A DNA stretch of 48,466 nucleotides from Escherichia phage vB_Eco_SLUR29, in sequence record NC_054895.1, one strand, 5' to 3'. Positions 1 through 48,466 of this stretch are shown piece after piece. The notes beneath the pieces were generated by a model. That model was not told the DNA's origin. It saw only the letters and a program-made list of their open reading frames with translations, and searched no databases. Position 1 is the first letter of the stretch. Every line of letters begins with the position of its first letter. Made by a program: the position numbers and the translations under genes.

Positions 1-1569
1 CTATTTATTGCGTAGACCAGCCAGCTTTTTCATCCTTGCTACCGGATCATCTGCCAAGTTCATTTCGACGTTAACAGCATCAACTATATTATCGACAATA
101 TCATCATGGGGATGAGAATCGTCAAAAGTGAACGCTGCAACCTCTGCCAGTATCTCAGGCAGCATGGGATGATTTTCTGGCAGTGCCACACGTCCGGCCC
201 TCATTACTGGCGCGGCGTCCATTGCTCGCGTTACCTTGTCATTGCTTCGCTGAACGGGATTTATATCAATCGGGATCTTCTTTTTGGCCCCCTGAATCAA
301 ACCCGTGCCGCTGGCCTTATCCTCAATGTGAATACGTCGCAAGCTGCCACAATCCTTATTGCGCTTCCAGCACTGATTAACGAAGGCAATAAAATTTAAT
401 TCAAGATCTGGCGCTTCCCACTTGCCGCGAATGCCATCAATGAAGTAAACGCGATTTTTATACATCCCCCAATAACAAAAAACTGAATAGTCGTTAAGCT
501 CTCCGGCCTTCTGTGCTGTATCTCCAGTAATAAATGTGTATTCAAAGCGATCCGGTTTAGGAAGTGCGCATTTTTCGCCTCTGCCGTAATACTGGAACCA
601 CTCTGTTTTAAACACGTTGCCGCCAAGCGCGATTGGTTGTTGTTGGTATTGGCTGGCGAACGTGTAAGGATCTGCATTCCGCAATGCAAGCAATTCCTCC
701 GCGCTTTCCTTTGCAGGCCAAAATGAATAATGAGCAACGCCATCTATCATCACTGGCTTACTTGACAGAACATCACGATCAAATTCAGGCTTCAACCAAT
801 CAGGAAGCGTTTCGCGGTATTCTTTCGTAACCAGCGCCGGAATACTCACAACTTTAAACTCAATACCACCCATCCCGCCATTAAGCATAAACCAGGTGGA
901 ATCATTAACGTGTAGTCGCTGTTGCACCATAACAATCGGCGTAGTGTCTTTCATTCGACGCGATCGCACTGTGTTTTTTAACCGCATGTGGATCGCCTCA
1001 CGCTTGACCTTAGAAAGCATATCATCCGGCTTGTCTGGATCGTCAAGAACCAGCATACCAGTAAAACCATCGTCCATATAGCCGCCACGCAAACCCGTTA
1101 CCTGTCCGCCAATAGATCGTGAGTTAACTTGCAATTTAACCTTGCCGCCATCCGTAACTATGAGATCTTTTGCACTCGCCTTTGCCAGTTTTCCTGGCCA
1201 TAGCTCTTGCCACTCAGGAGAACCGATAATCTCCTTTATCCTGTTGCTGTTTTGCTGGACAAGTCCATCACTAAACGAAAGGTTAAGGTTTCTCACCTTC
1301 CGGCTTTTCAATGACGCGTAGGGTGACATGTGGATCGAGAAAATCTCAGTCTTGCCGCTACCTGGCGTAATATTGAAAATCACATTCTGCGACTCTCCAT
1401 TGATGATCTTCTCTACCTCACTGCACAATAAGCTAAAATGCCAGTTGCTCTGGAATTTTTGCCCCTGCAATAACTGGAACCAGATTCTGATCATCTTTTC
1501 GAATGAATGCTCACTGATTTCTTTAATGGCTCGCTTTTGCGCTGCCGTCAAATCTTCCCATATGATCAT
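1..1569 (-). CDS. terminase large subunit
   Basis: 522-aa ORF; P-loop-like ITPGSGKTE near N-terminus; directly downstream of small-terminase-like ORF with ATG/TAA overlap; portal follows across the window junction. Confidence 0.85.
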   Translation of the reverse strand: MIIWEDLTAAQKRAIKEISEHSFEKMIRIWFQLLQGQKFQSNWHFSLLCSEVEKIINGESQNVIFNITPGSGKTEIFSIHMSPYASLKSRKVRNLNLSFSDGLVQQNSNRIKEIIGSPEWQELWPGKLAKASAKDLIVTDGGKVKLQVNSRSIGGQVTGLRGGYMDDGFTGMLVLDDPDKPDDMLSKVKREAIHMRLKNTVRSRRMKDTTPIVMVQQRLHVNDSTWFMLNGGMGGIEFKVVSIPALVTKEYRETLPDWLKPEFDRDVLSSKPVMIDGVAHYSFWPAKESAEELLALRNADPYTFASQYQQQPIALGGNVFKTEWFQYYGRGEKCALPKPDRFEYTFITGDTAQKAGELNDYSVFCYWGMYKNRVYFIDGIRGKWEAPDLELNFIAFVNQCWKRNKDCGSLRRIHIEDKASGTGLIQGAKKKIPIDINPVQRSNDKVTRAMDAAPVMRAGRVALPENHPMLPEILAEVAAFTFDDSHPHDDIVDNIVDAVNVEMNLADDPVARMKKLAGLRNK

Positions 1570-2096: not shown

Positions 2097-2143
2097 TGTT
2101 AATCCTCCTTTGGTTAGATGCCTGATTATACCAGACAACGGGC

Positions 2144-2176
2144 AATAAAAAACCCGCCGTGCGGCGGGTAATTTTT
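2144..2176 (-). terminator. intrinsic terminator upstream of TerS, followed by extended -10 promoter-like TGGTATAAT
   Basis: minus-strand ACCCGCCGCACGGCGGGT followed by TTTTTT; TGGTATAAT about 20 nt further downstream. Confidence 0.55.
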
Positions 2177-15213: not shown

Positions 15214-15245
15214 AAATAAAGGAGGCGTTAAGCCTCCTTTTTCTT
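15214..15245. terminator. bidirectional intrinsic terminator between convergent operons
   Basis: hairpin GGAGGC-GTTA-AGCCTCC flanked by A-run and T-run. Confidence 0.6.
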
Positions 15246-21718: not shown

Positions 21719-22195
21719 ATGAAAGATGCACGAATTGCGGTGTCTACGGGTGAGATCGACAAGCGCACTATTAACGGTAACAACGGAACGCGACGAGGTA
21801 AAGACAAAAAGCCACGAAAACACCGAACCGGATTTCTTATCCTGCGAGATGAGGTAAAAGCAAGCCTGAAATCTCGCTTGGATATTCTGATCGAGTATTA
21901 TGGCGGTGTTCCTGCTATGGCTCGACGTCTACGCGTATCTCAGCAAGTCGTTAACCAATGGCGAAAGCGTGGTATGATTTCAGCCGCTGGAGCACAAAAG
22001 GTGCATAACGACTACAAATATAATGGATGCAAAGGATACCGCGCATCATTTTGTCGTCCAGATCTGCGGTTTGATTCTAACGGTAAGCCTCTTACTACCC
22101 GTTGCGACAAATACGAGATGTTGCGCGTAGTCAAAAATTCAGACTACGAACCAGGCGGACGATTCTACAAAGGTGATAACAGCACAAATAGCTAA
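21719..22195 (+). CDS. HTH DNA-binding protein (Cro/YdaS-like)
   Basis: HTH-like GGVPAMARRLRVSQQVVNQWRKRG; GAGG SD. Confidence 0.6.
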   Translation: MKDARIAVSTGEIDKRTINGNNGTRRGKDKKPRKHRTGFLILRDEVKASLKSRLDILIEYYGGVPAMARRLRVSQQVVNQWRKRGMISAAGAQKVHNDYKYNGCKGYRASFCRPDLRFDSNGKPLTTRCDKYEMLRVVKNSDYEPGGRFYKGDNSTNS

Positions 22196-26282: not shown

Positions 26283-26313
26283 AAAAAGCCCCGCATATGC
26301 GGGGCTTTTTGTT
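26281..26313. terminator. bidirectional intrinsic terminator
   Basis: hairpin AGCCCCGCATATGCGGGGCT with A-run upstream and T-run downstream. Confidence 0.7.
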
Positions 26314-29283: not shown

Positions 29284-29302
29284 GTAGCACTTTTTGCTAA
29301 AC
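29284..29302 (+). promoter_or_regulatory. degenerate copy of 19-mer element (GTAGCACTTTTTGCTAAAC) with -10-like TATAGT
   Basis: TATAGT 21 nt after TTGCTA; ACAACAACAAAGGAG leader; precedes lipoprotein gene. Confidence 0.45.
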
Positions 29303-29585: not shown

Positions 29586-29616
29586 TAAAAATAAAGGGGC
29601 AAAAGCCCCTTTTTAA
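29586..29616. terminator. bidirectional intrinsic terminator
   Basis: hairpin AGGGGCAAAAGCCCCT flanked by A- and T-runs, between convergent genes. Confidence 0.65.
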
Positions 29617-34141: not shown

Positions 34142-34188
34142 GACTTTTAACCTTTTGTGCTGTTTATTGGTTTGCTCATTATAAATGC

Positions 34189-34222
34189 ACAAAAAAACCC
34201 GCGCAAGGCGGGTATTTTTTTT
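34189..34222. terminator. hairpin with flanking A/T runs between I and J
   Basis: ACCCGCGCAAGGCGGGT flanked by 7 A and 8 T. Confidence 0.55.
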
Positions 34223-36290: not shown

Positions 36291-36322
36291 TTTCTACCTC
36301 CTTTTTGCTCATTGTAACATCA

Positions 36323-36348
36323 AGAAAAAAGCCGCACAAAGGCGGCTT
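36323..36348 (-). terminator. intercistronic hairpin plus U-tract between M and L
   Basis: minus-strand AGCCGCCTTTGTGCGGCT followed by TTTTTT. Confidence 0.5.
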
Positions 36349-36352
36349 TAAA

Positions 36353-39387: not shown

Positions 39388-39404
39388 TTTAAAACCTCCA
39401 GATA

Positions 39405-39429
39405 TTAAAAAAAGCGCCTCGCGGCGCTT
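39405..39429 (-). terminator. intercistronic hairpin plus U-tract upstream of tape measure gene
   Basis: minus-strand AGCGCCGCGAGGCGCT followed by TTTTTTT. Confidence 0.45.
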
Positions 39430-40076: not shown

Positions 40077-40095
40077 ATAGCACTTTTTGTTAAAA
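40077..40095 (+). promoter_or_regulatory. exact 19-mer copy in plus orientation inside leftward structural operon
   Basis: ATAGCACTTTTTGTTAAAA; TAGATT 22 nt after TTGTTA; about 45 nt before terminator at 40141; its reverse complement abuts SD of G gene. Confidence 0.45.
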
Positions 40096-40132
40096 GTGGA
40101 ATTAATTTATTTGATAGATTGATTTTACAGGA

Positions 40133-40160
40133 ATGAAAAAAGGGGCGCAACGCCCCTTGT
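40133..40160 (-). terminator. intrinsic terminator after major tail protein gene
   Basis: minus-strand GGGGCGTTGCGCCCCT followed by TTTTTTT. Confidence 0.7.
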
Positions 40161-40161
40161 T

Positions 40162-40824
40162 TTACTTAACGTCGGAAGGTAAGAACGTGAATCGGCCTTT
40201 CAGAGATACAGAGAGGGAAACAGTTTCTATTTCGTTCATAGTGGTTTGCGGAATGTCATTAAAAGACAATACGCCAGCCCAGCAACGCATCTCTTTAGCT
40301 TTCGGCACGTACATACGCAAAGCGGTTACGTCGCCGGATTCCTCAGCCTCGCGCAAGATAGGATAAATCGGGTTATCATATTCATGCGCGAAAGTGTAGG
40401 TAAGAGAAACTGCGCTCTTGTAGGTCGGTAACTGCTGCTCCTGGTCGTCAGCCAAACACTGATAAGTGTAATACTGTTGCTCGCCGCCGTCCTGCGCAAG
40501 ATCCTGTACGCAAGGAATCTCTACCCAAGATTTTACTTCTCGGAAAGTTGCGGTATTAGAACCAGCCGGAAAAACATTGGTGTCTTTCGTGCTTACACCC
40601 TCAAGAGTAACGCTTGCATCATCTGATACCTCCTTAACTCGAAGCACGCGACTAACAAGTTTGCCCCAGGAAGATGTTTCAATAAGAACATAAGCGCCTT
40701 TTTTGATGCTTTGAGTGTTTGCAGTCGTAAAAACAGGATCATCAGCATTTGAAATAGCCGTAGCCTGAATCGGATCACCCATATTAACGCCGATGAAAAT
40801 TTGAGAACCATTAGGCAAGTGCAT
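40162..40824 (-). CDS. major tail protein
   Basis: 220 aa; AGGAGG SD; position before chaperone/TMP; followed by strong terminator. Confidence 0.7.
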   Translation of the reverse strand: MHLPNGSQIFIGVNMGDPIQATAISNADDPVFTTANTQSIKKGAYVLIETSSWGKLVSRVLRVKEVSDDASVTLEGVSTKDTNVFPAGSNTATFREVKSWVEIPCVQDLAQDGGEQQYYTYQCLADDQEQQLPTYKSAVSLTYTFAHEYDNPIYPILREAEESGDVTALRMYVPKAKEMRCWAGVLSFNDIPQTTMNEIETVSLSVSLKGRFTFLPSDVK

Positions 40825-42485: not shown

Positions 42486-42752
42486 TTAATATTCGCCGCC
42501 ATCCTCTAGCTCTTTGCGGCTCTTGCCCTCGGTAGGATCTTTTTTGCGCTTCTTCTCCGCTTTCTCCTTGATTTGCTCGTTAATTTCGGAATTGTCTTTA
42601 ACTTCCACATCGCCGCGAGCGATCAGGTATTCAATTGCGGAATCATTAATGCGATCTGATTCAATTTCAATTTCATCACCAGGATGATAACGCTTACCGT
42701 CCATAATAATCATGCAAACGCCAGTTACTTTAAGTTTTAAAGTTTTGCTCAT
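42486..42752 (-). CDS. hypothetical head module protein (88 aa, Lys/Glu-rich C-terminus)
   Basis: ORF with GGAG SD after hairpin/U-tract. Confidence 0.45.
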
Positions 42753-42769
42753 TTTGTGTACTCCATAAA

Positions 42770-42797
42770 TAAAAAAGGGGAACCCTTAAGGCTCCCC
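42770..42797 (-). terminator. hairpin plus U-tract after major capsid gene
   Basis: minus-strand GGGGAGCC-TTAA-GGGTTCCCC followed by TTTTTAT. Confidence 0.5.
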
Positions 42798-42808
42798 ATG
42801 TTATCTAA

Positions 42809-43780
42809 TTAAACTGACTTTTTCAAGCCAGTAATAAGCACCATCGTAAACGGACGGTAAATCGTAAGGCCAGTACACTTGGAAGTGCAAGGAACCTTGA
42901 AATGAAGGTCTTTTGGCTGCGCCGGAAGCATGTTAAACGCTTCTGGAATCTCAATGCTCATGTTCATTGGATCTTTTTCGTAAACCAAGCAACCTTTAGT
43001 ACCTTTGCCGTCAATATCCTCAAGCTCTGCGATAGAGTCGATAGTGATGCCGCCGTTTTGCTTCTGGAAGTATTCCAGATAACTTTCAGTGGTATTTTCC
43101 ATTCGAACCGTCAGGACTTTGCGCATGGACGGCGGGATCAGGATGTTAGTCGCGCGGTGCTGGCCTTTTGTTACTTCCTCGATCGTTTCGATTGCGGCCT
43201 CCAGTTCATCGCTTGCCACATCAGGGAACTTGGTGTTTCCATCCTGGCTCATCCATCCTTTAGAAACAATTTTCGTAAGGTTAGGATGATCGAAAACGGA
43301 AACGATCTTATGAGGCTTGGAACCTTTGAACACCAGGAAGTTAATCAGCTGATCATGTGCATTTTGCGCGGCGTTAGCCTTGCGAGTTGACAGGCTCTTG
43401 CCAGTTCGCTGGCCTGCTTTAATCTCATCAATGGAGATCAGAAAAGCGTTACCCAGGCGGAACACTTTGCCAAACTCAGAAGTCATCAGCGCGTCCACAG
43501 TCGGCAGATCGTCGGTGTAGTCTGCGATAATTTTCGCGTAGCCAACCTTATCAAAAGTCTGATACTCGAAAGTCTTGTCAGTATCAGAAAGCTCGTTTGT
43601 TACGGGGAATACGCGAAGCGCGGAACCTGCCGGATACTCTTTCTCGTATGCCGTTGAACGGATCTTGTGTAGCTCTTGAGCGGTCCAAATACCCATATCA
43701 GAAGCATCACCCTTAACGCCATGAACCTGTAAATGATTTGCTACAATGGTAGCATCTAATTCATCGTATTTTTTAGCCAT
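42809..43780 (-). CDS. major capsid protein
   Basis: 323 aa; position after decoration/scaffold genes; strong SD GGAGG; by synteny and size. Confidence 0.7.
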   Translation of the reverse strand: MAKKYDELDATIVANHLQVHGVKGDASDMGIWTAQELHKIRSTAYEKEYPAGSALRVFPVTNELSDTDKTFEYQTFDKVGYAKIIADYTDDLPTVDALMTSEFGKVFRLGNAFLISIDEIKAGQRTGKSLSTRKANAAQNAHDQLINFLVFKGSKPHKIVSVFDHPNLTKIVSKGWMSQDGNTKFPDVASDELEAAIETIEEVTKGQHRATNILIPPSMRKVLTVRMENTTESYLEYFQKQNGGITIDSIAELEDIDGKGTKGCLVYEKDPMNMSIEIPEAFNMLPAQPKDLHFKVPCTSKCTGLTIYRPFTMVLITGLKKSV

Positions 43781-43793
43781 TTTGCTTCCTCCA

Positions 43794-43820
43794 TAAAAAA
43801 GGCCGTTAAATGTAACGGCC
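43794..43820 (-). terminator. hairpin plus U-tract immediately upstream of capsid gene SD
   Basis: minus-strand GGCCGTTACATTTAACGGCC followed by TTTTTT. Confidence 0.4.
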
Positions 43821-43826
43821 TAGATG

Positions 43827-43845
43827 ATAGCACTTTTTGTTAAAC
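43827..43845 (+). promoter_or_regulatory. 19-mer copy (ATAGCACTTTTTGTTAAAC) in plus orientation inside structural operon
   Basis: 18/19 match; TATTAG 22 nt after TTGTTA. Confidence 0.4.
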
Positions 43846-43870
43846 GTGCAATGTTTTTTTATGCTATTAG

Positions 43871-44653
43871 TTATTCGCCAGCGGTTTTCGTAAATACAAT
43901 ATCAAACTGGTCAGCAACTCCAGAACCATCATTAGCAGTCCAGTTGACGTTAACTCTGCCTCCTACACCAGTAGGAACAACAAGACCTGTACGGCTAACG
44001 CTGGCAACCTTTGGATCTTGCTCGTTTGTAATTGTCCACTGACCCGTTTTGTCATCAGCCCAAGTAGGAACAACCGTTACCTTTAATTGAACGTTATTAA
44101 TCGTCTCTGTTCCCTCTATGTAGCCATTTTCGGCCTCAATGATCGCACCAGTAAGAAGGTATTTTCTATGATGAAGCGGCGTTATTCTGACTCCGACTAT
44201 GTTCATTGTTTCATCAAACTTGTAGAAGTCACCAGTAAAAATCCAGCCATCGACGATTTCATCGCCATCACTTTTTGCTACAAAACCATCATTGTTAACA
44301 TAAACAAGATCGCCATGTTCAGGCGCAGACTCAATCGTTTGAGTTAAGCACCATACAACCCCTCTTGTTAAAATATTGATAGAATCTCCTTCCTTATAGT
44401 CAGAGTATCCGTCTTCCTCGTTAACCGTTGTCGTGATATTGCTCCTTATAGCAACACCAGCAACCACAGCATCATACTCTTTATGATCAACAAATATGTT
44501 ATAACCTTCCACTCTCTCTTTGAAGAAAACAACTTTGCCAGCAATGATCGACTCAGATCCGCAAACGCCAGTTCCATCAATATTGTAGCGAGTAGAATCA
44601 ACCAAACAACCAGGGCAAGAAAGACCCATAACAGATGAATAATCTTTAGCCAT
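43871..44653 (-). CDS. putative capsid decoration/structural protein with C-terminal Ig-like (Big_2-like) domain
   Basis: 260 aa; N-terminal half paralogous to 44704..45213 product; beta-rich C-terminus. Confidence 0.5.
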   Translation of the reverse strand: MAKDYSSVMGLSCPGCLVDSTRYNIDGTGVCGSESIIAGKVVFFKERVEGYNIFVDHKEYDAVVAGVAIRSNITTTVNEEDGYSDYKEGDSINILTRGVVWCLTQTIESAPEHGDLVYVNNDGFVAKSDGDEIVDGWIFTGDFYKFDETMNIVGVRITPLHHRKYLLTGAIIEAENGYIEGTETINNVQLKVTVVPTWADDKTGQWTITNEQDPKVASVSRTGLVVPTGVGGRVNVNWTANDGSGVADQFDIVFTKTAGE

Positions 44654-44672
44654 TTCATTTCTCCTTACATAA

Positions 44673-44699
44673 TAAAAAAGGCGCTCAAGCGAGCGCCTT
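44673..44699 (-). terminator. intercistronic hairpin plus U-tract
   Basis: minus-strand AGGCGCTCGCTTGAGCGCCT followed by TTTTTT. Confidence 0.5.
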
Positions 44700-44703
44700 A
44701 ATT

Positions 44704-45213
44704 TTAGCTTGGGAAGACCTGAACTTCAAACAAAGTCAACACATCATCGCCAGTTCCAAATGTGGTTTTATCTCCCGTGTAAATCCAGTTGGTATTGATA
44801 GTGCCAGCACTTTTCACCTTGCCAGTGTTTTCATCAATTTTTACAGGCTCACGATACGATGGTTTTTTGCTCTTGTCGGTATCATCGCCAACCATCCAAA
44901 CGCGGCCCTCTGTCATAACGTTGATTCCGCCGCCAGCCTCATAAACCATTCGTCCATTATCAGCCGTAGTTTGAAAGTGCGAACGGATGCCAACGCCATA
45001 AGGAACATCACCACTACCAGAAATAGCGTCGATCAGCTTATTACCCATTGAGTCAACGCCTTTTAGCTTAACAGCCACGCCAACCAGGATTGGGATGCCG
45101 TCTTCCTTGTCAAGAACACAAGCGCCGTCGATGTTATATGCCGAAGTATCGGATACCTGACCAGGAAGCGCACGCGCCATAGTGTCAAAATAACTTGCTC
45201 CAATTTTAGCCAT
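44704..45213 (-). CDS. putative capsid structural protein (paralog of 43871..44653)
   Basis: 169 aa; shared pattern MAK..S....YNIDG......G..V....GV.IRS. Confidence 0.5.
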   Translation of the reverse strand: MAKIGASYFDTMARALPGQVSDTSAYNIDGACVLDKEDGIPILVGVAVKLKGVDSMGNKLIDAISGSGDVPYGVGIRSHFQTTADNGRMVYEAGGGINVMTEGRVWMVGDDTDKSKKPSYREPVKIDENTGKVKSAGTINTNWIYTGDKTTFGTGDDVLTLFEVQVFPS

Positions 45214-45225
45214 TTTAATTACTCC

Positions 45226-46341
45226 TTATTTCAGTTTCTCAAAACGAGCGTTAGGATTCAGCTTAGAACCTGCGTCATCCTGCTTTTCATTCGCGAAAGA
45301 GTCACCTTTAATGCTCTTACGCTGCGCCGCCATTTTATCAGAGTTTTTGGCGATGTCGAAAGCTGTTTCGATATAGGCATCAGTTTTATCAGAAACGTCA
45401 TTGCCCATAACTTCCTTGATGTATGCAACCTTGATTGCTTTCGCATCCAGGCCGTCGCACTTGATGCCTAACTCTTTAGCGTCTGCCACTAATTGAGCAT
45501 ATTGCTCGGCATCTTCTTTGGCCTTCTTGACTGCGGCATCAATCTGATCCTGAATGCCATCTACTTTGGTTTGCAGTGCGTCTCGCTCAGCTTCCAGGCT
45601 GTCAGCCTTTTCTTTCTGAGCTTTGGTATCAGCTTTCAGTGATTCAATGTGATCCGCAACCGCTTTCGGCACGTCAAACTCTACAGCGCCATCCAGTTTA
45701 ATTTTTACAGTCATGATTTGATCCTCTTTGTTGTTAATAACGTCGTCACTATACGGAAAATCTTGCTGGCTATCAAGGTTTAATTTTGCAATGCCAGCTC
45801 GACCTCGGAAAACTAACGCGATGTGGTTTACCTTGATTTCAGTCTGGATTGCATCAAACTTAACCCAATCAGGAGAATCAGGTTTCCAGTCTTCGCTAAC
45901 GTCCTCATCGAAAACGTACTCACCAGTTTTATTATTGCCCCAGCCTGGTTTATCAATATCAACCGATGTATAACCAACTGAAATTTCAGCCGTGTCTCGC
46001 TTCTTTGCGCTTTCGATTGCTCGTTTTGAGTAAATGCTTAACGGAACCTCTACGCCGATCCCGTTAGGCACACCAGCGCCAGCACAAGAACCAACCACAA
46101 CCTTTTCGGCATTTTCTGGCGTTACCGTGACGTGACCAACCGTGACCGGCTTCCCTGCAAAGGTGGCGAGCGAGTCGGCCTTGAATACTTCTGACGCAGG
46201 GCGAAATTCTCGGCGCTCACCGAAAGGAGTCTGATAGACTTGTAAACCAATTCGCGCCACGATAGGGCGATCAACTAAAAACCCGTTATCATCAAAGTGC
46301 GCCTTTACTTTGGCGCTATCAAATCTTTGTTTTGCCTTCAT
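45226..46341 (-). CDS. putative prohead protease/scaffold protein
   Basis: 371 aa; globular N-terminal domain followed by long charged coiled-coil C-terminus; position between head morphogenesis and capsid genes. Confidence 0.5.
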   Translation of the reverse strand: MKAKQRFDSAKVKAHFDDNGFLVDRPIVARIGLQVYQTPFGERREFRPASEVFKADSLATFAGKPVTVGHVTVTPENAEKVVVGSCAGAGVPNGIGVEVPLSIYSKRAIESAKKRDTAEISVGYTSVDIDKPGWGNNKTGEYVFDEDVSEDWKPDSPDWVKFDAIQTEIKVNHIALVFRGRAGIAKLNLDSQQDFPYSDDVINNKEDQIMTVKIKLDGAVEFDVPKAVADHIESLKADTKAQKEKADSLEAERDALQTKVDGIQDQIDAAVKKAKEDAEQYAQLVADAKELGIKCDGLDAKAIKVAYIKEVMGNDVSDKTDAYIETAFDIAKNSDKMAAQRKSIKGDSFANEKQDDAGSKLNPNARFEKLK

Positions 46342-46351
46342 TTAATACCTC

Positions 46352-47107
46352 TTAACTGTTCCAATCTGGTATGGCCCAACAACGACAACCGAAAGGCTCA
46401 CCAGGAAAATCATGTTCAGAATCTAGCGCAATGCGCTTACCTTCCCATTGTACATGCTGCAATCGCTCTCTGTCATCAAGCATACCATGCCAAAAATAAT
46501 GAGTTACTTTTGAATCATAAAGACGCTGGCGCATGAGTCTACTATTCCAAGCGCCTATGATGTTTTCCGCCCTTGTCTTACCCCAAGAGCTATACACTGC
46601 GAACCTCTTACCAGCCAATTCATTAACCTGGCTATCTCTCATTCCGCGAAAGTTTGCCAATCTAATATTGGTTGACCAGTCAGACACGATGTTTCCAAAT
46701 AGCTTTTGAAGAGATGCGATCGTCATGTCATGCCATTGACCGTATAGCGTCCTATACCAACTCTCATTCGCATTGGCCCCAATAGCCATAAGGATGATAA
46801 CGGCTGAATTTGACTTGCCTCCCGTTGATTTGGCTACGTTAATAAATTGCTTCGAGTTGAATTTATAAACAGCAAGACCGATAGCCGGAAGTGATGCGGC
46901 GATGCCAGCTATTAGCTTTAACGCGAAGCTACTAATCTCATCCTCTGCGGCGTTGATTTCTTCGGTGTCCGCGTCAAATTTCATTTCCTTTGTTTTGCTG
47001 CGCATCAGCACAACAAGATCCCTTATCGCCTCCTGAATTGAGCGGCGCAATTGCCGCTCGCTTGCTTCAGGAAAGCGCCATTGTTTAACGACGCCTTTCA
47101 CTATCAT
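46352..47107 (-). CDS. head morphogenesis protein (SPP1 gp7 / Mu F-like)
   Basis: C-terminal ...EPFGCRCW... motif typical of Mu F-like minor capsid proteins; ATGA coupling to portal. Confidence 0.7.
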   Translation of the reverse strand: MIVKGVVKQWRFPEASERQLRRSIQEAIRDLVVLMRSKTKEMKFDADTEEINAAEDEISSFALKLIAGIAASLPAIGLAVYKFNSKQFINVAKSTGGKSNSAVIILMAIGANANESWYRTLYGQWHDMTIASLQKLFGNIVSDWSTNIRLANFRGMRDSQVNELAGKRFAVYSSWGKTRAENIIGAWNSRLMRQRLYDSKVTHYFWHGMLDDRERLQHVQWEGKRIALDSEHDFPGEPFGCRCWAIPDWNS

Positions 47108-48402
47108 TGATTGCTACCCTCGGTTGTTCCTGGCTCCGGCTCTACGTCCTGCTCAGGTAATTTAATGTTATTGCCGTCTTTTAGTTTAACGTTAGGCGCA
47201 ATGGCTCGCAATGTGTCGCGCGCCTCCTCTGTATCCATGAATTGACCGTCAATAGCCTTGCTCAAAGAATCAATGTTCTTGTTCAAGATCTCGGCCTGGT
47301 CCTTTTCGCTGGGAACGCTTAACGGCGCAAACTGAATACTCCATTCTTCCTCTTGAATCAGGAACGGGATCAGAAATTCAAGGATTGGTTTGTATTCTTC
47401 CTTTCGCTTTCTGTCGATCAGCTTGTAGAAGGTTTCAAGCGCCGTGTTTTGGCTCGCGCTAACACCGCCAACGTTCTTGTTTTTGAGGATGATTTCATGG
47501 ATGCCGGAAAGAGATACAATGCGATCCATCTTCTTTTCCAAGAACGAATCGACGGCAGAAATATCAGAATTTAAAACATCATATTCCTCATCTTCCGCAT
47601 CAATGCCGATCGCACGGCCTACGCCACCCTCATCATCAACTTGAGCAAGTCGCAAACGTGCGGCACTAACACCATCATCATCATCACAAAGATCAGCAAG
47701 ACCTTTAACTTTCCATACCGCCTGTTGCTTACGTCGCAACAATTGAGTTGCTAAGTTTTCGCAGTAGTTATAATCACAAATAGCCTCAACAAGTCTCTTA
47801 TTCAGGATCGACTCACCCCACCCATCATTTGATTGACGCCGCTGATTTGGTAGCCGCTCACCGTCGATAATACAGACTCGCGAATAGTGAACCTGGTATT
47901 CTGGCAAGTCGGCACCAGGTGAAATGGTGTAAATTAATGGCTCACCATATCTTACCTTGCGTGGATTAGTTTCGCGCTTTTCTACCCTAACCTGAAAGCG
48001 ATCGTAAACGCGAACATCTTCAAGGATTGCACCAGGCGCTACAGGTGACTTTAACGACCTGCCATCCTGGACGATTGCCACGATTGCAGCGCCACCAAAA
48101 AGACGCGACCAGCAAAGCGCATCAATGATTTTATCGTTTAGTCGCTTCTCATCCCACAAAGATCTAAAACTTTCCTCATCTTCCACGCCATCAATATTAA
48201 ATCCAGGCGTCACCATTTCTTCTGGAACAACGTCGATGATTCGTTTTGCTAGGCCGTCACGAATGTAAAAATCAGCGTGCGTGGTGTATTCGAACCCCTG
48301 CATAAAGAAAGGCAACTCTACACGCCCATTGCCCTTACTACCCTTGAAAATCTCGTTGTATCCATCGGCCTTAACTAGCCTTGTTTTTTCGCTCATCGTC
48401 AA
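47104..48402 (-). CDS. portal protein
   Basis: 432 aa; follows TerL across the window junction; precedes Mu F-like gene; GGAG SD. Confidence 0.8.
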   Translation of the reverse strand: MTMSEKTRLVKADGYNEIFKGSKGNGRVELPFFMQGFEYTTHADFYIRDGLAKRIIDVVPEEMVTPGFNIDGVEDEESFRSLWDEKRLNDKIIDALCWSRLFGGAAIVAIVQDGRSLKSPVAPGAILEDVRVYDRFQVRVEKRETNPRKVRYGEPLIYTISPGADLPEYQVHYSRVCIIDGERLPNQRRQSNDGWGESILNKRLVEAICDYNYCENLATQLLRRKQQAVWKVKGLADLCDDDDGVSAARLRLAQVDDEGGVGRAIGIDAEDEEYDVLNSDISAVDSFLEKKMDRIVSLSGIHEIILKNKNVGGVSASQNTALETFYKLIDRKRKEEYKPILEFLIPFLIQEEEWSIQFAPLSVPSEKDQAEILNKNIDSLSKAIDGQFMDTEEARDTLRAIAPNVKLKDGNNIKLPEQDVEPEPGTTEGSNQ

Positions 48403-48412
48403 ATCTCCATAA

Positions 48413-48439
48413 TAAAAAAGGCTGGAAAAATCCAGCCTT
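48413..48439 (-). terminator. hairpin plus U-tract between TerL and portal (across junction)
   Basis: minus-strand AGGCTGGATTTTTCCAGCCT followed by TTTTTT then ATTATGGAG SD. Confidence 0.5.
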
Positions 48440-48466
48440 GATTATATAACTTTTTAGCAATTAGTG

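What the first reader, a model, noticed from the sequence alone, without database searches (positions are those of the whole stretch)
42770..48439. Recurrent hairpin / U-tract / TTTAT / GGAG modules between structural genes
Upstream of the portal, the 260-aa head gene, the capsid gene, the 88-aa gene, tape measure, L, J, the 103-aa tail gene and ssb there is a GC-rich hairpin followed by 5-8 T, then a short TTTAT(T)-type tract and the SD (for example ...CCAGCCTTTTTTATTATGGAGATTTGACGATG). These look like leaky intrinsic terminators or RNA-stability elements that could set expression ratios within the long late operon. The TTTAT tract could alternatively be a late-promoter-like signal.
Basis: seen in the sequence. 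Interest (0 to 1): 0.45.

Follow-up and report, generated by a model that had tools for sequence, protein, structure and literature searches.

The report
Overlapping terminator–promoter junctions between phage genes
The recurring hairpin/T-run/GGAG modules are ordinary intrinsic transcription terminators, already annotated at the same gene junctions in the related phages T1 and TLS; each one appears to be fused to a conserved host-type promoter, so the structural genes look like a chain of short, separately started and stopped transcription units rather than one long operon.

Summary
The window is a T1-like coliphage, 99% identical to phage tunus (Drexlerviridae). TTTTTAT-N0-8-GGAG occurs four times, only at the four cited sites (0.37 expected by chance). 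Eight strong hairpin+T-run elements lie on the coding strand of the late region, against 0.21 in shuffles. They look like canonical Rho-independent terminators: 7-9 bp GC stems, T6, compensatory stem changes across about 80 related phages.

This is not new. T1's GenBank record and the TLS paper list terminators at the orthologous junctions.

Before portal, the 260-aa gene, the capsid gene and the 88-aa gene, a -10 hexamer ends 0-2 nt before the stem. The TTG-17-TAnnAT pattern is invariant across diverged relatives. Before L, J and the chaperone gene, the -35 lies in the loop, the T-run is the spacer and the -10 follows.

The inferred mechanism is that upstream transcripts stop at the U-tract, while locally initiated RNA starts inside the 5' stem arm and so cannot form the hairpin. 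"TTTAT" is the distal U-tract and an AU-rich leader, not a late promoter.

The closest known kind is the PeSL promoter-terminator cassette of T4-like phages. No transcript data exist, so termination and start sites are inferred.

The parts
48441..48446 (-). -10 hexamer TATAAT of the pre-portal promoter. The -35 position is occupied by ATAGCA(C) of the 21-nt T1/TLS direct repeat, which spans the window junction (48464-48466 plus 1-4, overlapping the terL stop codon).
   Evidence: PWM score 6.9, top 0.25% of all positions. TATAAT/TACAAT/TAAAAT ends 0-1 nt before the stem in 26 of the 27 distinct junctions of the closer relatives; the odd one, L038, also carries TATAAT but its folded helix starts inside it. 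Coordinates were counted by hand.
48409..48439 (-). Terminator before portal: AAGGCTGG-ATTTTT-CCAGCCTT, then TTTTATTAT (T6 run including the stem's last TT).
   Evidence: dG -14.7 to -16.8, z -4.3. The orthologous site is annotated as a terminator in T1 and in TLS as T30.
48394..48408 (-). SD GGAG (48405-48408) and portal start ATG (48394-48396).
44701..44729 (-). Promoter TTGAAG-17-TAAAAT before the 260-aa cement/decoration gene. The -10 ends 1 nt before the stem.
   Evidence: Found by the scan. PWM 10.8, top 0.01%. TTGCAT-17-TAATAT sits at the same place in T1. Conservation is patchier in relatives.
44667..44699 (-). Terminator AAGGCGCTC-GCTT-GAGCGCCTT plus TTTTATTATGT.
   Evidence: Stem variants GGCGCTC / GGCACTC / GGCTCC / GGCCGG / GGGACTATCC all form perfect helices.
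44651..44666 (-). SD AAGGAG and the start codon of the 260-aa gene (Phage_cement + Big_2).
43824..43851 (-). Capsid-gene promoter TTGCAC-16-TGcTATCAT (extended -10). Its spacer and -10 are the 21-nt T1/TLS repeat in inverted orientation.
   Evidence: PWM 9.5, top 0.03%. Conserved as TTGCAC / TTGAAC / TTGACG-16-TATCAT / TATATT / TATTAT in all relatives, including the 55%-identity clade that lacks the hairpin.
43793..43821 (-). Terminator AGGCCGTTA-CATT-TAACGGCCT plus TTTTTAT.
   Evidence: The hairpin is conserved with compensatory changes, but in many relatives the T-run shrinks to 1-4 T.
43778..43792 (-). SD GGAGG and the capsid-gene start ATG.
42798..42826 (-). Promoter TTGAAA-17-TAACAT before the 88-aa gene. 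The -35 lies in the last codons of the capsid gene and the -10 abuts the stem (gap 0).
   Evidence: Found. PWM 10.4, top 0.02%. TTGnnn-17-TAnnAT is present in 36 of 36 distinct junctions with gap 0-2. T, A, A and T of the -10 are invariant columns in a 16-sequence alignment.
42765..42797 (-). Terminator GGGGAGCC-TTA-AGGGTTCCCC plus TTTTTTATTTAT.
   Evidence: The T-run is mostly T5-T9 (T4 in three junctions; 6-8 T among the first 8 tail bases in all 36). 3 of 8 pairs show double compensatory changes even in a MAFFT alignment.
42750..42764 (-). SD GGAG and the start of the 88-aa gene (DUF7444).
40122..40158 (-). Outside the given range. Terminator after the major tail gene (40140-40158) overlapped by promoter TTGCGC (40145-40150, loop and 3' arm)-17-TAAAAT (40122-40127). 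A second, inverted-repeat promoter motif lies at 40077-40095.
   Evidence: score 9.3, top 0.04%. Same arrangement in T1. Coordinates.
39402..39429 (-). Terminator before the tape-measure gene (AAGCGCC-GCGA-GGCGCTT, T7, AATAT, GGAGG). No overlapping promoter was detected.
36311..36349 (-). Terminator before gene L (36328-36349) overlapped by TTGTGC (36334-36339)-17-TACAAT (36311-36316, with TGn).
   Evidence: score 10.8, top 0.01%. T1 ortholog TTGCGC-17-TAGAAT.
34178..34213 (-). Terminator before gene J (34197-34213) overlapped by TTGCGC (34201-34206)-17-TATAAT (34178-34183).
   Evidence: score 10.9, top 0.01%. T1 ortholog is identical in layout.
2125..2169 (-). Terminator before terS (2152-2169), followed by an extended -10 TGGTATAAT (2125-2133), an SD and the terS ATG at 2096. 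This starts the terS-terL unit, which ends at the pre-portal terminator.

Best explanation
Each module is a compact composite junction built from three parts.

(1) A canonical Rho-independent terminator (GC stem of 7-9 bp, loop of 3-4 nt, U6 continuing into an A/U-rich tail) ends the transcript of the upstream gene block and leaves it with a protective 3' hairpin.

(2) A host sigma70-type promoter is packed onto the same ~65 bp. In the four head-gene modules its -10 hexamer ends 0-2 nt before the stem. E. coli RNA polymerase normally starts about 7 nt after the -10. The locally initiated RNA would therefore begin inside the 5' arm, could not form the hairpin and would not terminate on itself.

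(3) The U-tract and TTTAT tail then become the unstructured A/U-rich leader directly in front of GGAG and the start codon.

In the tail-gene modules (chaperone, L, J) the same two signals overlap in the other register: the -35 lies in the loop, the U-tract is the spacer and the -10 lies downstream.

The late region is thereby cut into about nine short transcription units:
- terS-terL
- portal to the 169-aa gene
- the 260-aa gene
- the capsid gene
- the 88-aa gene to the major tail gene
- chaperone
- tape measure and the next gene
- L-K-I
- J

Relative expression would depend on promoter strength, terminator leak and mRNA stability.

Shown: the hairpins and T-runs exist, are far above chance and are structurally conserved; the promoter-like hexamers are conserved at fixed spacing and fixed register. 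Inferred, not shown: that termination occurs, where transcription starts, and that local transcripts escape.
For: Terminator part:
- 8 strong elements on the late coding strand against 0.21 +/- 0.48 in shuffles.
- Every intergenic gap of 40 nt or more has one.
- All 16-18 distinct stem variants at each junction fold into perfect helices of -9 to -17 kcal/mol.
- Chimeras of a 5' arm from one phage with a 3' arm from another lose 3.7-7 kcal/mol on average.
- T1's GenBank record and TLS Table S1 independently call terminators at the orthologous junctions.

Promoter part:
- The best promoter with its -10 ending within 6 nt of the stem ranks in the top 0.25%, 0.01%, 0.03% and 0.02% of all window positions for the portal, 260-aa, capsid and 88-aa genes.
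- The register-B promoters for chaperone, L and J rank in the top 0.01-0.04%.
- Terminators at convergent gene ends (29612, 15240) have no promoter in either register.
- The same result holds on T1's independently annotated terminators: 7 of 12 late ones have a top-0.3% promoter in register A or B.
- Pre-88-aa junction: TTGnnn-17-TAnnAT in 36 of 36 distinct sequences, with -10 variants TAACAT / TAGCAT / TAATAT / TATTAT / TATCAT / TACCAT / TACTAT. T-12, A-11, A-8 and T-7 are invariant alignment columns.
- The TTG falls in different codons of differently ending capsid genes but keeps the 17-nt spacing.
- The capsid-gene promoter is conserved even in the clade that has no downstream hairpin.

Escape geometry:
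- Full junction RNAs fold at -13.5 to -16.8 kcal/mol.
- RNAs starting 6-8 nt after the -10 fold at -3.1 to -4.2 kcal/mol, no better than shuffles. Across relatives the 7-nt start gives about 0 to -5.6 kcal/mol in the junctions that carry an abutting promoter.
- Composite promoter/stem-loop cassettes with both promoter and terminator activity shown experimentally exist in T4-like phages.
Against: - There is no 5'- or 3'-end mapping for any T1-like phage in the searchable literature.
- The promoter matrix was written from remembered compilation frequencies. Only the empirical ranks are robust.
- Several -35 hexamers are weak (ATAGCA/TAGCAC, TTGCAC) or lie in coding sequence.
- The A/T-rich flank that terminators usually have, together with nearby stop codons, could inflate -10-like matches.
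- Related phages are not independent samples.
- The pre-260-aa promoter is not conserved in several relatives.
- The pre-tape-measure element has no promoter.
- In many relatives the pre-capsid hairpin keeps its stem but has only 1-4 T. In the ~52%-identity clade the pre-portal hairpin abuts a strong promoter but has no T-run at all. The hairpin may therefore have a role beyond termination.
- Plain sigma70 promoters do not by themselves explain why these genes are expressed late.
Confidence: 0.6

Rival explanations
1. These are plain leaky terminators/attenuators within one long late transcript. Polymerase enters from one or a few upstream promoters and is thinned out at each hairpin. The promoter-like hexamers are non-functional by-products of A/T-rich terminator flanks.
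For: - The terminator features are solid.
- The tape-measure element has no promoter and must be read through.
- The TLS authors found only three convincing promoters.
- The general sigma70 scan finds no excess of promoter-like sites in the region as a whole: 32 observed against 32.5 expected.
Against: - A terminator directly upstream of the capsid gene would then depress the most abundant virion protein relative to portal.
- TAnnAT and the exact 17-nt TTG spacing are conserved while the other positions and the coding context change.
- The promoter register is fixed relative to the stems in both this phage and T1.
- The capsid-gene promoter persists in a clade without the hairpin.
Confidence: 0.2
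2. The hairpins are chiefly RNA-stability or processing elements. They would act as 3' hairpins that block exonucleases after cleavage, and/or as 5'-terminal stem-loops that protect the downstream mRNA from RNase E. Actual termination would be minor.
For: - Stems are conserved where the T-run is not: pre-capsid junctions with TTTAAGGAG, and pre-portal hairpins without any T-run in the ~52% clade.
- Early-region hairpins next to the 21-nt repeat also lack T-runs.
Against: - In this phage all four elements carry T6, and the pre-88-aa junction keeps a T4-T9 run (6-8 T among the first 8 tail bases) in 36 of 36 relatives.
- A 5'-terminal protective hairpin needs the start site at the base of the stem, which would need a gap of about 6-7 nt after the -10. 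The observed gap is 0-2 nt.
- Stems of 7-9 bp are too short for RNase III (own knowledge of RNase III substrates).
Confidence: 0.1
3. The conserved junctions act mainly as recombination linkers that let gene cassettes be swapped between phages, as proposed for PeSLs. Their transcription signals would be secondary.
For: The 260-aa cement/Ig gene lies between two such junctions. It is only 31-50% identical, or replaced, in phages whose flanking capsid and portal genes are 74-90% identical. PeSL-mediated shuffling is documented in T4-like phages.
Against: - The stems differ between junctions within one genome, so there is little homology to recombine on.
- Strong purifying pattern on TAnnAT, the stem pairing and the T-run points to transcriptional function.
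- No recombination breakpoints were mapped.
Confidence: 0.05
4. The TTTAT(T) tract is a late-promoter-like signal read by a phage-modified polymerase.
For: It recurs directly upstream of four late genes.
Against: - It is only 2-9 nt from the SD, so a start site downstream of it would remove the ribosome-binding site.
- It is continuous with the T-run, as in ordinary terminators.
- TATAAATA is not enriched and is absent from the late region.
- No sigma factor or polymerase gene is reported in the related phage TLS; not tested on this window.
Confidence: 0.02

Closest known systems
Rho-independent terminators annotated in coliphage T1 (NC_005833) and TLS, and the T1 'transcripton' model (Roberts, Martin & Kropinski 2004, as quoted in PMC11447400)
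   Same: The junctions are the same: terL|portal, before the gp48 homolog, capsid|next gene, major tail|chaperone, before tape measure, before L, before J. The layout is the same: hairpin, T-run, ATT. The T1 authors already proposed late modules flanked by terminators and containing RpoD promoters.
   Different: - Public records give no promoter coordinates.
- The TLS re-annotation accepted only 3 promoters and would not affirm transcriptons.
- The fixed registers described here (-10 abutting the stem, or -35 in the loop) and their conservation are not stated in what I could read.
PeSL (promoter-early stem-loop) composite promoter-terminator cassettes of T4-like myoviruses (Arbiol et al. 2010, PMC2839356; Comeau et al. 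2014, PMC4122927)
   Same: Both are ~70-100-bp intergenic cassettes with a sigma70-like promoter, an A/T-rich upstream part, a GC stem-loop that terminates upstream transcription, and an SD plus start codon at the 3' end. The stem-loop overlaps the promoter core. In nt-1 the stem consensus is A3-4G3-loop-C3T3-4, like AAGG...CCTT here.
   Different: - PeSLs sit in early, hyperplastic ORFan regions of myoviruses, with the stem-loop usually between -35 and -10 or over the -10.
- Here four cassettes flank core structural genes of a siphovirus, the stem starts just after the -10, and a full U-tract follows.
- Promoter and terminator activity was measured for PeSLs. Nothing has been measured here.
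Canonical E. coli/lambda intrinsic terminators (for example lambda tR2 and the his attenuator, which as I recall also end ...CCTTTTTATTT / ...CTTTTTTATTG; from memory)
   Same: GC-rich stem of 7-9 bp, short loop, and a T-run interrupted by a single A ('TTTTTTATT').
   Different: Here the tail runs straight into the SD of the next gene, and a promoter -10 touches the stem.
Lambda-type late operon with Q antitermination
   Same: It is a siphovirus with lambda-like tail genes (L, K, I, J) in the same order.
   Different: Lambda transcribes all late genes from one promoter with a terminator-resistant polymerase. Here there are 8-9 internal terminators, each (bar one) paired with its own promoter, and no Q-like gene is known. 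qut/nut-type sites were not searched.
Microvirus phiX174 and filamentous-phage internal promoters and weak terminators that set structural-gene ratios (own knowledge)
   Same: Several promoters and internal terminators within a block of co-oriented structural genes produce nested or segmented mRNAs in different amounts.
   Different: In those phages the promoters and terminators are separate sites. The physical overlap seen here is not a described feature as far as I know.

Membership tests
Rho-independent (intrinsic) terminator | GC-rich stem-loop immediately followed by a U-rich tract on the transcribed strand | tested here: met
   Stems of 7-9 bp with 5-6 GC pairs, loops of 3-4 nt, T6. The T-run is good only on the coding-strand side.
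Rho-independent (intrinsic) terminator | Occurs far more often than chance and lies in intergenic gaps downstream of genes | tested here: met
   8 observed against 0.21 +/- 0.48 in shuffles. All elements lie in gaps of 40 nt or more.
Rho-independent (intrinsic) terminator | Structure rather than sequence is conserved (compensatory changes) | tested here: met
   All distinct variants form perfect helices. Chimeric arms lose 3.7-7 kcal/mol. 3 of 8 pairs show double changes in one alignment. A second MAFFT alignment was out of register and uninformative.
Rho-independent (intrinsic) terminator | RNA 3' ends map to the U-tract, or RNA is released in vitro | not testable with these tools
   No Term-seq or in vitro data for T1-like phages were found.
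Sigma70-type promoter | -35-like and -10-like hexamers 17 +/- 1 nt apart, scoring above background | tested here: met
   Top 0.01-0.25% of window positions at seven junctions, and likewise in T1. The matrix itself was recalled from memory.
Sigma70-type promoter | Key positions (TTG; T-12, A-11, T-7) conserved while others drift | tested here: met
   TAnnAT is invariant in a 16-sequence alignment. TTG-17-TAnnAT is present in 36 of 36 pre-88-aa junctions. This is weaker for the pre-260-aa junction.
Sigma70-type promoter | Mapped transcription start or reporter activity | not testable with these tools
   No data are available.
PeSL-type composite promoter-terminator cassette | Promoter and terminator stem-loop overlap within one short intergenic cassette that ends in an SD and a start codon | tested here: met
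   compared with the description.
PeSL-type composite promoter-terminator cassette | Stem-loop lies between -35 and -10 or over the -10; the cassettes are a repeated, mutually similar sequence family in hyperplastic early regions of T4-like phages | tested here: not met
   In the four head modules the stem starts after the -10. The stems differ from one another. The host genome is a siphovirus and the flanked genes are core structural genes. The L, J and chaperone modules and the early repeat modules fit the positional criterion better.
T4-type late promoter (TATAAATA with a phage sigma) | TATAAATA box about 10 nt upstream of the start sites of late genes | tested here: not met
   3 matches against 2.3 expected, none in the late region. 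No sigma gene is reported in the related phage TLS; not tested on this window.
5'-terminal stabilising stem-loop (ompA type) | Hairpin within a few nt of the transcript's 5' end | tested here: inconclusive
   With the usual ~7-nt distance from -10 to start, transcription would begin inside the stem (gap 0-2 nt), and the truncated RNAs do not fold. The real start sites are unknown.
RNase III processing site (T7 type) | About 20 bp of double-stranded RNA | tested here: not met
   Stems are 7-9 bp, at most 11 bp with A-U extensions.
Any curated RNA family (Rfam 15) | Match at the gathering score | tested here: not met
   Only three sub-threshold hits in 28000-48466, none at the four modules.

The most novel reading that the evidence does not exclude
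The junctions may be 'terminate-and-reinitiate' relays. A polymerase that has just released its RNA at the U-tract stays on the DNA, slides back the ~25-30 bp to the overlapping promoter and starts again. Such recycling has been seen in single-molecule work (Kang et al. 2020). The abutting geometry would guarantee that the new RNA lacks the hairpin. The phage would thus chop late transcription into short, hairpin-capped mRNAs without losing polymerase flux. The same conserved cassettes could also serve as PeSL-like linkers for swapping the variable 260-aa decoration gene. This would extend the composite promoter-terminator cassette from T4-like early regions to the structural genes of siphoviruses.
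Probability: 0.15. Interest if true: 0.65.

Novelty: new member of a known kind. Interest (0 to 1): 0.35.

Why it matters
How T1-like phages, a very large group of therapeutic and laboratory-contaminant coliphages, transcribe their late genes is still unsettled. The latest re-annotation found only three promoters and left the 'transcripton' idea open.

If the overlapping promoter-terminator reading is right, it gives a concrete map of about nine late transcription units with predicted 5' and 3' ends at single-nucleotide resolution. It would also explain how the capsid and cement genes can be expressed independently of portal. Finally, it would supply ~65-bp natural parts that combine a terminator, a promoter and a ribosome-binding leader, which could be useful as compact insulators.

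If it is wrong, the elements remain ordinary, already-annotated terminators.

Tried and rejected
- TTTAT as a T4-like late promoter. Rejected on geometry and because TATAAATA is not enriched.
- RNase III or REP-type elements. The stems are too short and are not a repeated sequence family.
- Rfam. Nothing reaches threshold.
- RNAalifold on MAFFT alignments of the hairpins. One alignment was out of register and predicted no pairs, and the other gave only partial covariation. I replaced this with per-sequence folding and arm-swap chimeras.
- The general sigma70 scan shows no overall excess of promoter-like sites. The signal appears only when position relative to the stems is fixed.
- A search for transcriptome, TSS or Term-seq data on T1-like phages found none.
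- The original T1 genome paper could not be opened.
- A 5'-terminal protective hairpin was considered. It fits the 0-2 nt gap poorly.
- The 158-aa 'transcriptional regulator' (21719-22195) has only weak, sub-threshold Cro/YdaS-like HTH matches. It gives no handle on antitermination or repeat binding.

Full report
**Identity and context.** The window is 99% identical over the tested 6.5 kb to Escherichia phage tunus (Drexlerviridae; Tempevirinae; Warwickvirus), a T1-like siphovirus. The structural genes lie on the - strand. They run from terS/terL (2096 down to 1) across the window junction to portal (48396) and on to J (ends 30563). The window appears to be a full circular permutation: the terL stop codon is at 1-3, and the 70-nt terL-portal gap fills 48397-48466, the same length as in tunus.

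- AAGGCTGG-ATTTTT-CCAGCCTT TTTTATTATGGAG...ATG (portal)
- AAGGCGCTC-GCTT-GAGCGCCTT TTTTATTATGTAAGGAG (260-aa gene)
- AGGCCGTTA-CATT-TAACGGCCT TTTTTATGGAGG (capsid gene)
- GGGGAGCC-TTA-AGGGTTCCCC TTTTTTATTTATGGAG (88-aa gene)

The pattern TTTTTAT-N0-8-GGAG hits exactly these four places and nowhere else on either strand, against 0.37 expected. Under a strict terminator definition the coding strand of the late region has 8 elements, against 0.21 +/- 0.48 (maximum 2) in 300 dinucleotide shuffles. The junction RNAs fold at -13.5 to -16.8 kcal/mol, z = -2.4 to -4.3. Every late intergenic gap of 40 nt or more contains one such element, and the tightly packed junctions contain none. However, for L, J and the chaperone gene the SD is about 25-70 nt from the T-run, and the 'ssb' site has only four T.

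**Already known.** T1's RefSeq record annotates 'rho-independent transcriptional termination site' features at the orthologous junctions: terL|portal, gp49|gp48, capsid|gp46, gp46|gp45, major tail|chaperone, before tape measure, before L, before J and after J. The T1 sequences have the same hairpin/T-run/ATT/GGAG layout. The 2024 TLS re-annotation tabulates the same set, for example T30 ggctggaatattccggcctttttattat. [quoted passage not shown] **Structural conservation.** I fetched 79 related loci around the capsid gene (54-98% protein identity) and extracted the 110 nt upstream of the portal, 260-aa, capsid and 88-aa orthologs. At each junction there are 16-18 distinct hairpin sequences, and all fold into uninterrupted helices. 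Examples:
- GGCGCTC/GAGCGCC, GGCACTC/GAGTGCC, GGCTCC/GGAGCC, GGCCGG/CCGGCC, GGGACTATCC/GGATAGTCC
- GGGGAGCC, GGGAATCC, GGGACTC, GGGAGCCTC, GGGGCTAAC, each with the matching 3' arm

Swapping 5' and 3' arms between phages costs 3.7-7 kcal/mol on average. The pre-88-aa junction keeps a T-run of mostly T5-T9 (T4 in three junctions; 6-8 T among the first 8 tail bases in all 36 distinct junctions).

Reading upstream of the stems shows a sigma70-like promoter whose -10 hexamer ends 0-2 nt before the stem:
- 88-aa gene: TTGAAA-17-TAACAT|GGGGAGCC
- capsid gene: TTGCAC-16-TGcTATCAT-ct|AGGCCG
- 260-aa gene: TTGAAG-17-TAAAAT-t|AAGGCGCTC
- portal: (ATAGCAC)-17/18-TATAAT-c|AAGGCTGG

I used a simple position matrix, with frequencies recalled from the classical compilations, and ranked scores against all 97,000 window positions. 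The best promoter within 6 nt of each stem is in the top 0.02%, 0.03%, 0.01% and 0.25% respectively.

For the chaperone, L and J junctions the overlap is in another register. The -35 (TTGCGC or TTGTGC) lies in the loop and 3' arm, the T-run forms the 17-nt spacer, and TAAAAT, TACAAT or TATAAT follows. These rank in the top 0.01-0.04%. Two controls behave as expected. Terminators at convergent gene ends have no promoter in either register, and the pre-tape-measure terminator has no promoter.

Repeating the test on T1, using its independently annotated terminators, gives the same picture: 7 of 12 late terminators have a top-0.3% promoter in one of the two registers.

**Promoter conservation.**
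- Pre-88-aa junction: all 36 distinct sequences have TTGnnn-17-TAnnAT with a 0-2 nt gap. The -10 varies as TAACAT / TAGCAT / TAATAT / TATTAT / TATCAT / TACCAT / TACTAT.
- In a 16-sequence alignment the invariant columns are T-12, A-11, A-8 and T-7, the outer G and C bases of the stem, TTTT, GGAG and ATG.
- The capsid proteins end differently (...TGLKKSV*...ITGV*...GLVKG*), and the TTG falls in different codons, yet it stays 17 nt from the -10.
- Pre-portal junction: TATAAT, TACAAT or TAAAAT ends 0-1 nt before the stem in 26 of the 27 distinct junctions of the closer relatives (L038 also has TATAAT, but its folded helix starts inside it). In the ~52%-identity clade, TTGAAA-17-CATAAT overlaps the stem by 1 nt.
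- Capsid promoter: conserved throughout, including a clade with no downstream hairpin. In that clade a classical terminator sits upstream of the promoter instead.
- Pre-260-aa promoter: less consistently conserved.

**Mechanistic inference.** E. coli RNA polymerase typically starts about 7 nt after the -10 hexamer (established knowledge). With a 0-2 nt gap, the start falls 5-8 nt into the 5' arm. RNAs beginning there fold at only -3.1 to -4.2 kcal/mol, indistinguishable from shuffles. The full junction RNAs fold at -13.5 to -16.8 kcal/mol. Across relatives, the 7-nt start gives about 0 to -5.6 kcal/mol in the junctions that carry an abutting promoter. The simplest reading has three consequences:
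- Transcripts arriving from upstream meet a complete terminator.
- Transcripts from the local promoter do not.
- Their leader is the U/A-rich tail plus GGAG, so the TTTAT tract is the distal U-tract doing double duty. A/U-rich leaders favour ribosome loading (own knowledge).

This reading also explains why a terminator can sit directly in front of the capsid gene, the most abundant virion protein, without harming it. That is awkward for a pure attenuation model. The 260-aa and 169-aa genes encode Phage_cement-family decoration proteins, so the monocistronic 260-aa and capsid units fit high-copy products. The tape-measure junction, which has no promoter, is the one place where true attenuation (chaperone above tape measure) is the natural reading.

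**Caveats.**
- Nothing here shows termination, start sites or escape. No T1-like transcript-end data were found.
- Some -35 hexamers are weak or lie in coding sequence.
- A/T-rich terminator flanks can mimic -10 boxes.
- Related phages are not independent samples.
- In many relatives the pre-capsid hairpin keeps its stem but has only 1-4 T. The ~52% clade's pre-portal hairpin has no T-run. The hairpin may therefore also serve stability or some other role.
- Plain sigma70 promoters do not explain late timing.

**Comparison with known systems.** As terminators, these elements are members of a textbook class and were already annotated in the family. As composite cassettes, the closest described kind is the PeSL of T4-like phages. 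[quoted passage not shown] It ends in an SD and a start codon, and both its promoter and terminator activity have been demonstrated. The L, J and chaperone junctions fit that description closely. The four head junctions differ in three ways: the stem comes just after the -10, a full U-tract follows, and they flank core structural genes of a siphovirus. I therefore file the finding as a new member of a known kind, not as something new in kind. Lambda-style Q antitermination, T4 late promoters, RNase III sites and curated Rfam families do not fit.

**Most novel reading not excluded.** Post-termination polymerase is known to diffuse on DNA and reinitiate at nearby promoters. A promoter about 25-30 bp upstream of the release point would be ideally placed to recapture it. 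I give this about 15%.

Noticed in passing
window 4222(-), 5516(-), 6836(-), 8181(+), 8568(+), 9873(+), 12072(+), 12746(+), 14908(+), 18169(-), 19218(-), 29284(+): The published 21-nt T1/TLS direct repeat (ATAGCACnnnTTGnTAAA) is followed by a -10-like hexamer in 12 early/middle copies. The distance is exactly 20 nt, or 19 nt at 29284. The hexamers are TATAAT, TATAGT (x4), CATAAT (x3), TAAAAT, TACATT, TATATT and TAAAGT, often with TGn. That places the repeat at about -50 to -33, centred near -41.5, with no canonical -35. The spacer is usually a GC hairpin without a T-run, which is very PeSL-like. The TLS paper lists the repeats but does not link them to a -10.
   Followed up: partly
window 43827-43844 and 40077-40094 (+ strand reading); 48447-48466 plus 1-4 (- strand): In the late region the same repeat occurs inverted in front of the capsid and chaperone genes. 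There its reverse complement supplies the TGcTAT of an extended -10 on the gene strand. It occurs forward in front of portal, only 6 nt from TATAAT, so that ATAGCAC sits at the -35 position. Three different registers for one motif are unexplained.
   Followed up: partly
window 40085-40169 (+): There is a sub-threshold Rfam match to the sRNA family STnc50 (33.8 bits against a gathering score of 55, E = 0.02). It covers the stretch from the inverted repeat to the two-way hairpin at 40140-40158, antisense to the late genes. This is probably just a terminator plus an A/T-rich flank.
   Followed up: no
window 43871-44653 (-) and 44704-45213 (-): The 260-aa and 169-aa proteins both match the Phage_cement / XM1 gp53 minor-capsid families, so they are paralogs. 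The 260-aa protein also carries a C-terminal Big_2 Ig-like domain. In relatives it is only 31-50% identical or is replaced, while the flanking capsid and portal genes are 74-90% identical. It thus behaves as a variable cassette bounded by two conserved junctions.
   Followed up: partly
loci L040-L080 (the ~52-56% identity clade), pre-portal and pre-capsid junctions: In this clade the pre-portal junction has a strong promoter (TTGAAA-17-CATAAT) overlapping a GC hairpin (GTGGGCC-TGAC-GGCCCAC) that has no T-run. The capsid gene has the classical order instead: a terminator (GGGGCTTCGGCCCC T5), then the promoter, with no hairpin after it.
   Followed up: partly
window 15218-15240, 26288-26305, 29593-29612: Two-way terminators, with T-runs on both strands, lie at convergent gene boundaries. 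They have no overlapping promoter.
   Followed up: partly
window 1-4 and 48397-48466: The window seems to be a complete, circularly permuted genome cut inside the terL-portal junction. The terL stop codon is at 1-3 and lies inside the 21-nt repeat, which continues at 48466.
   Followed up: partly
window 21719-22195 (+): The 158-aa protein annotated as 'transcriptional regulator' in tunus has only sub-threshold Cro/YdaS-like helix-turn-helix matches. It is the only obvious candidate for a factor that binds the repeat.
   Followed up: no
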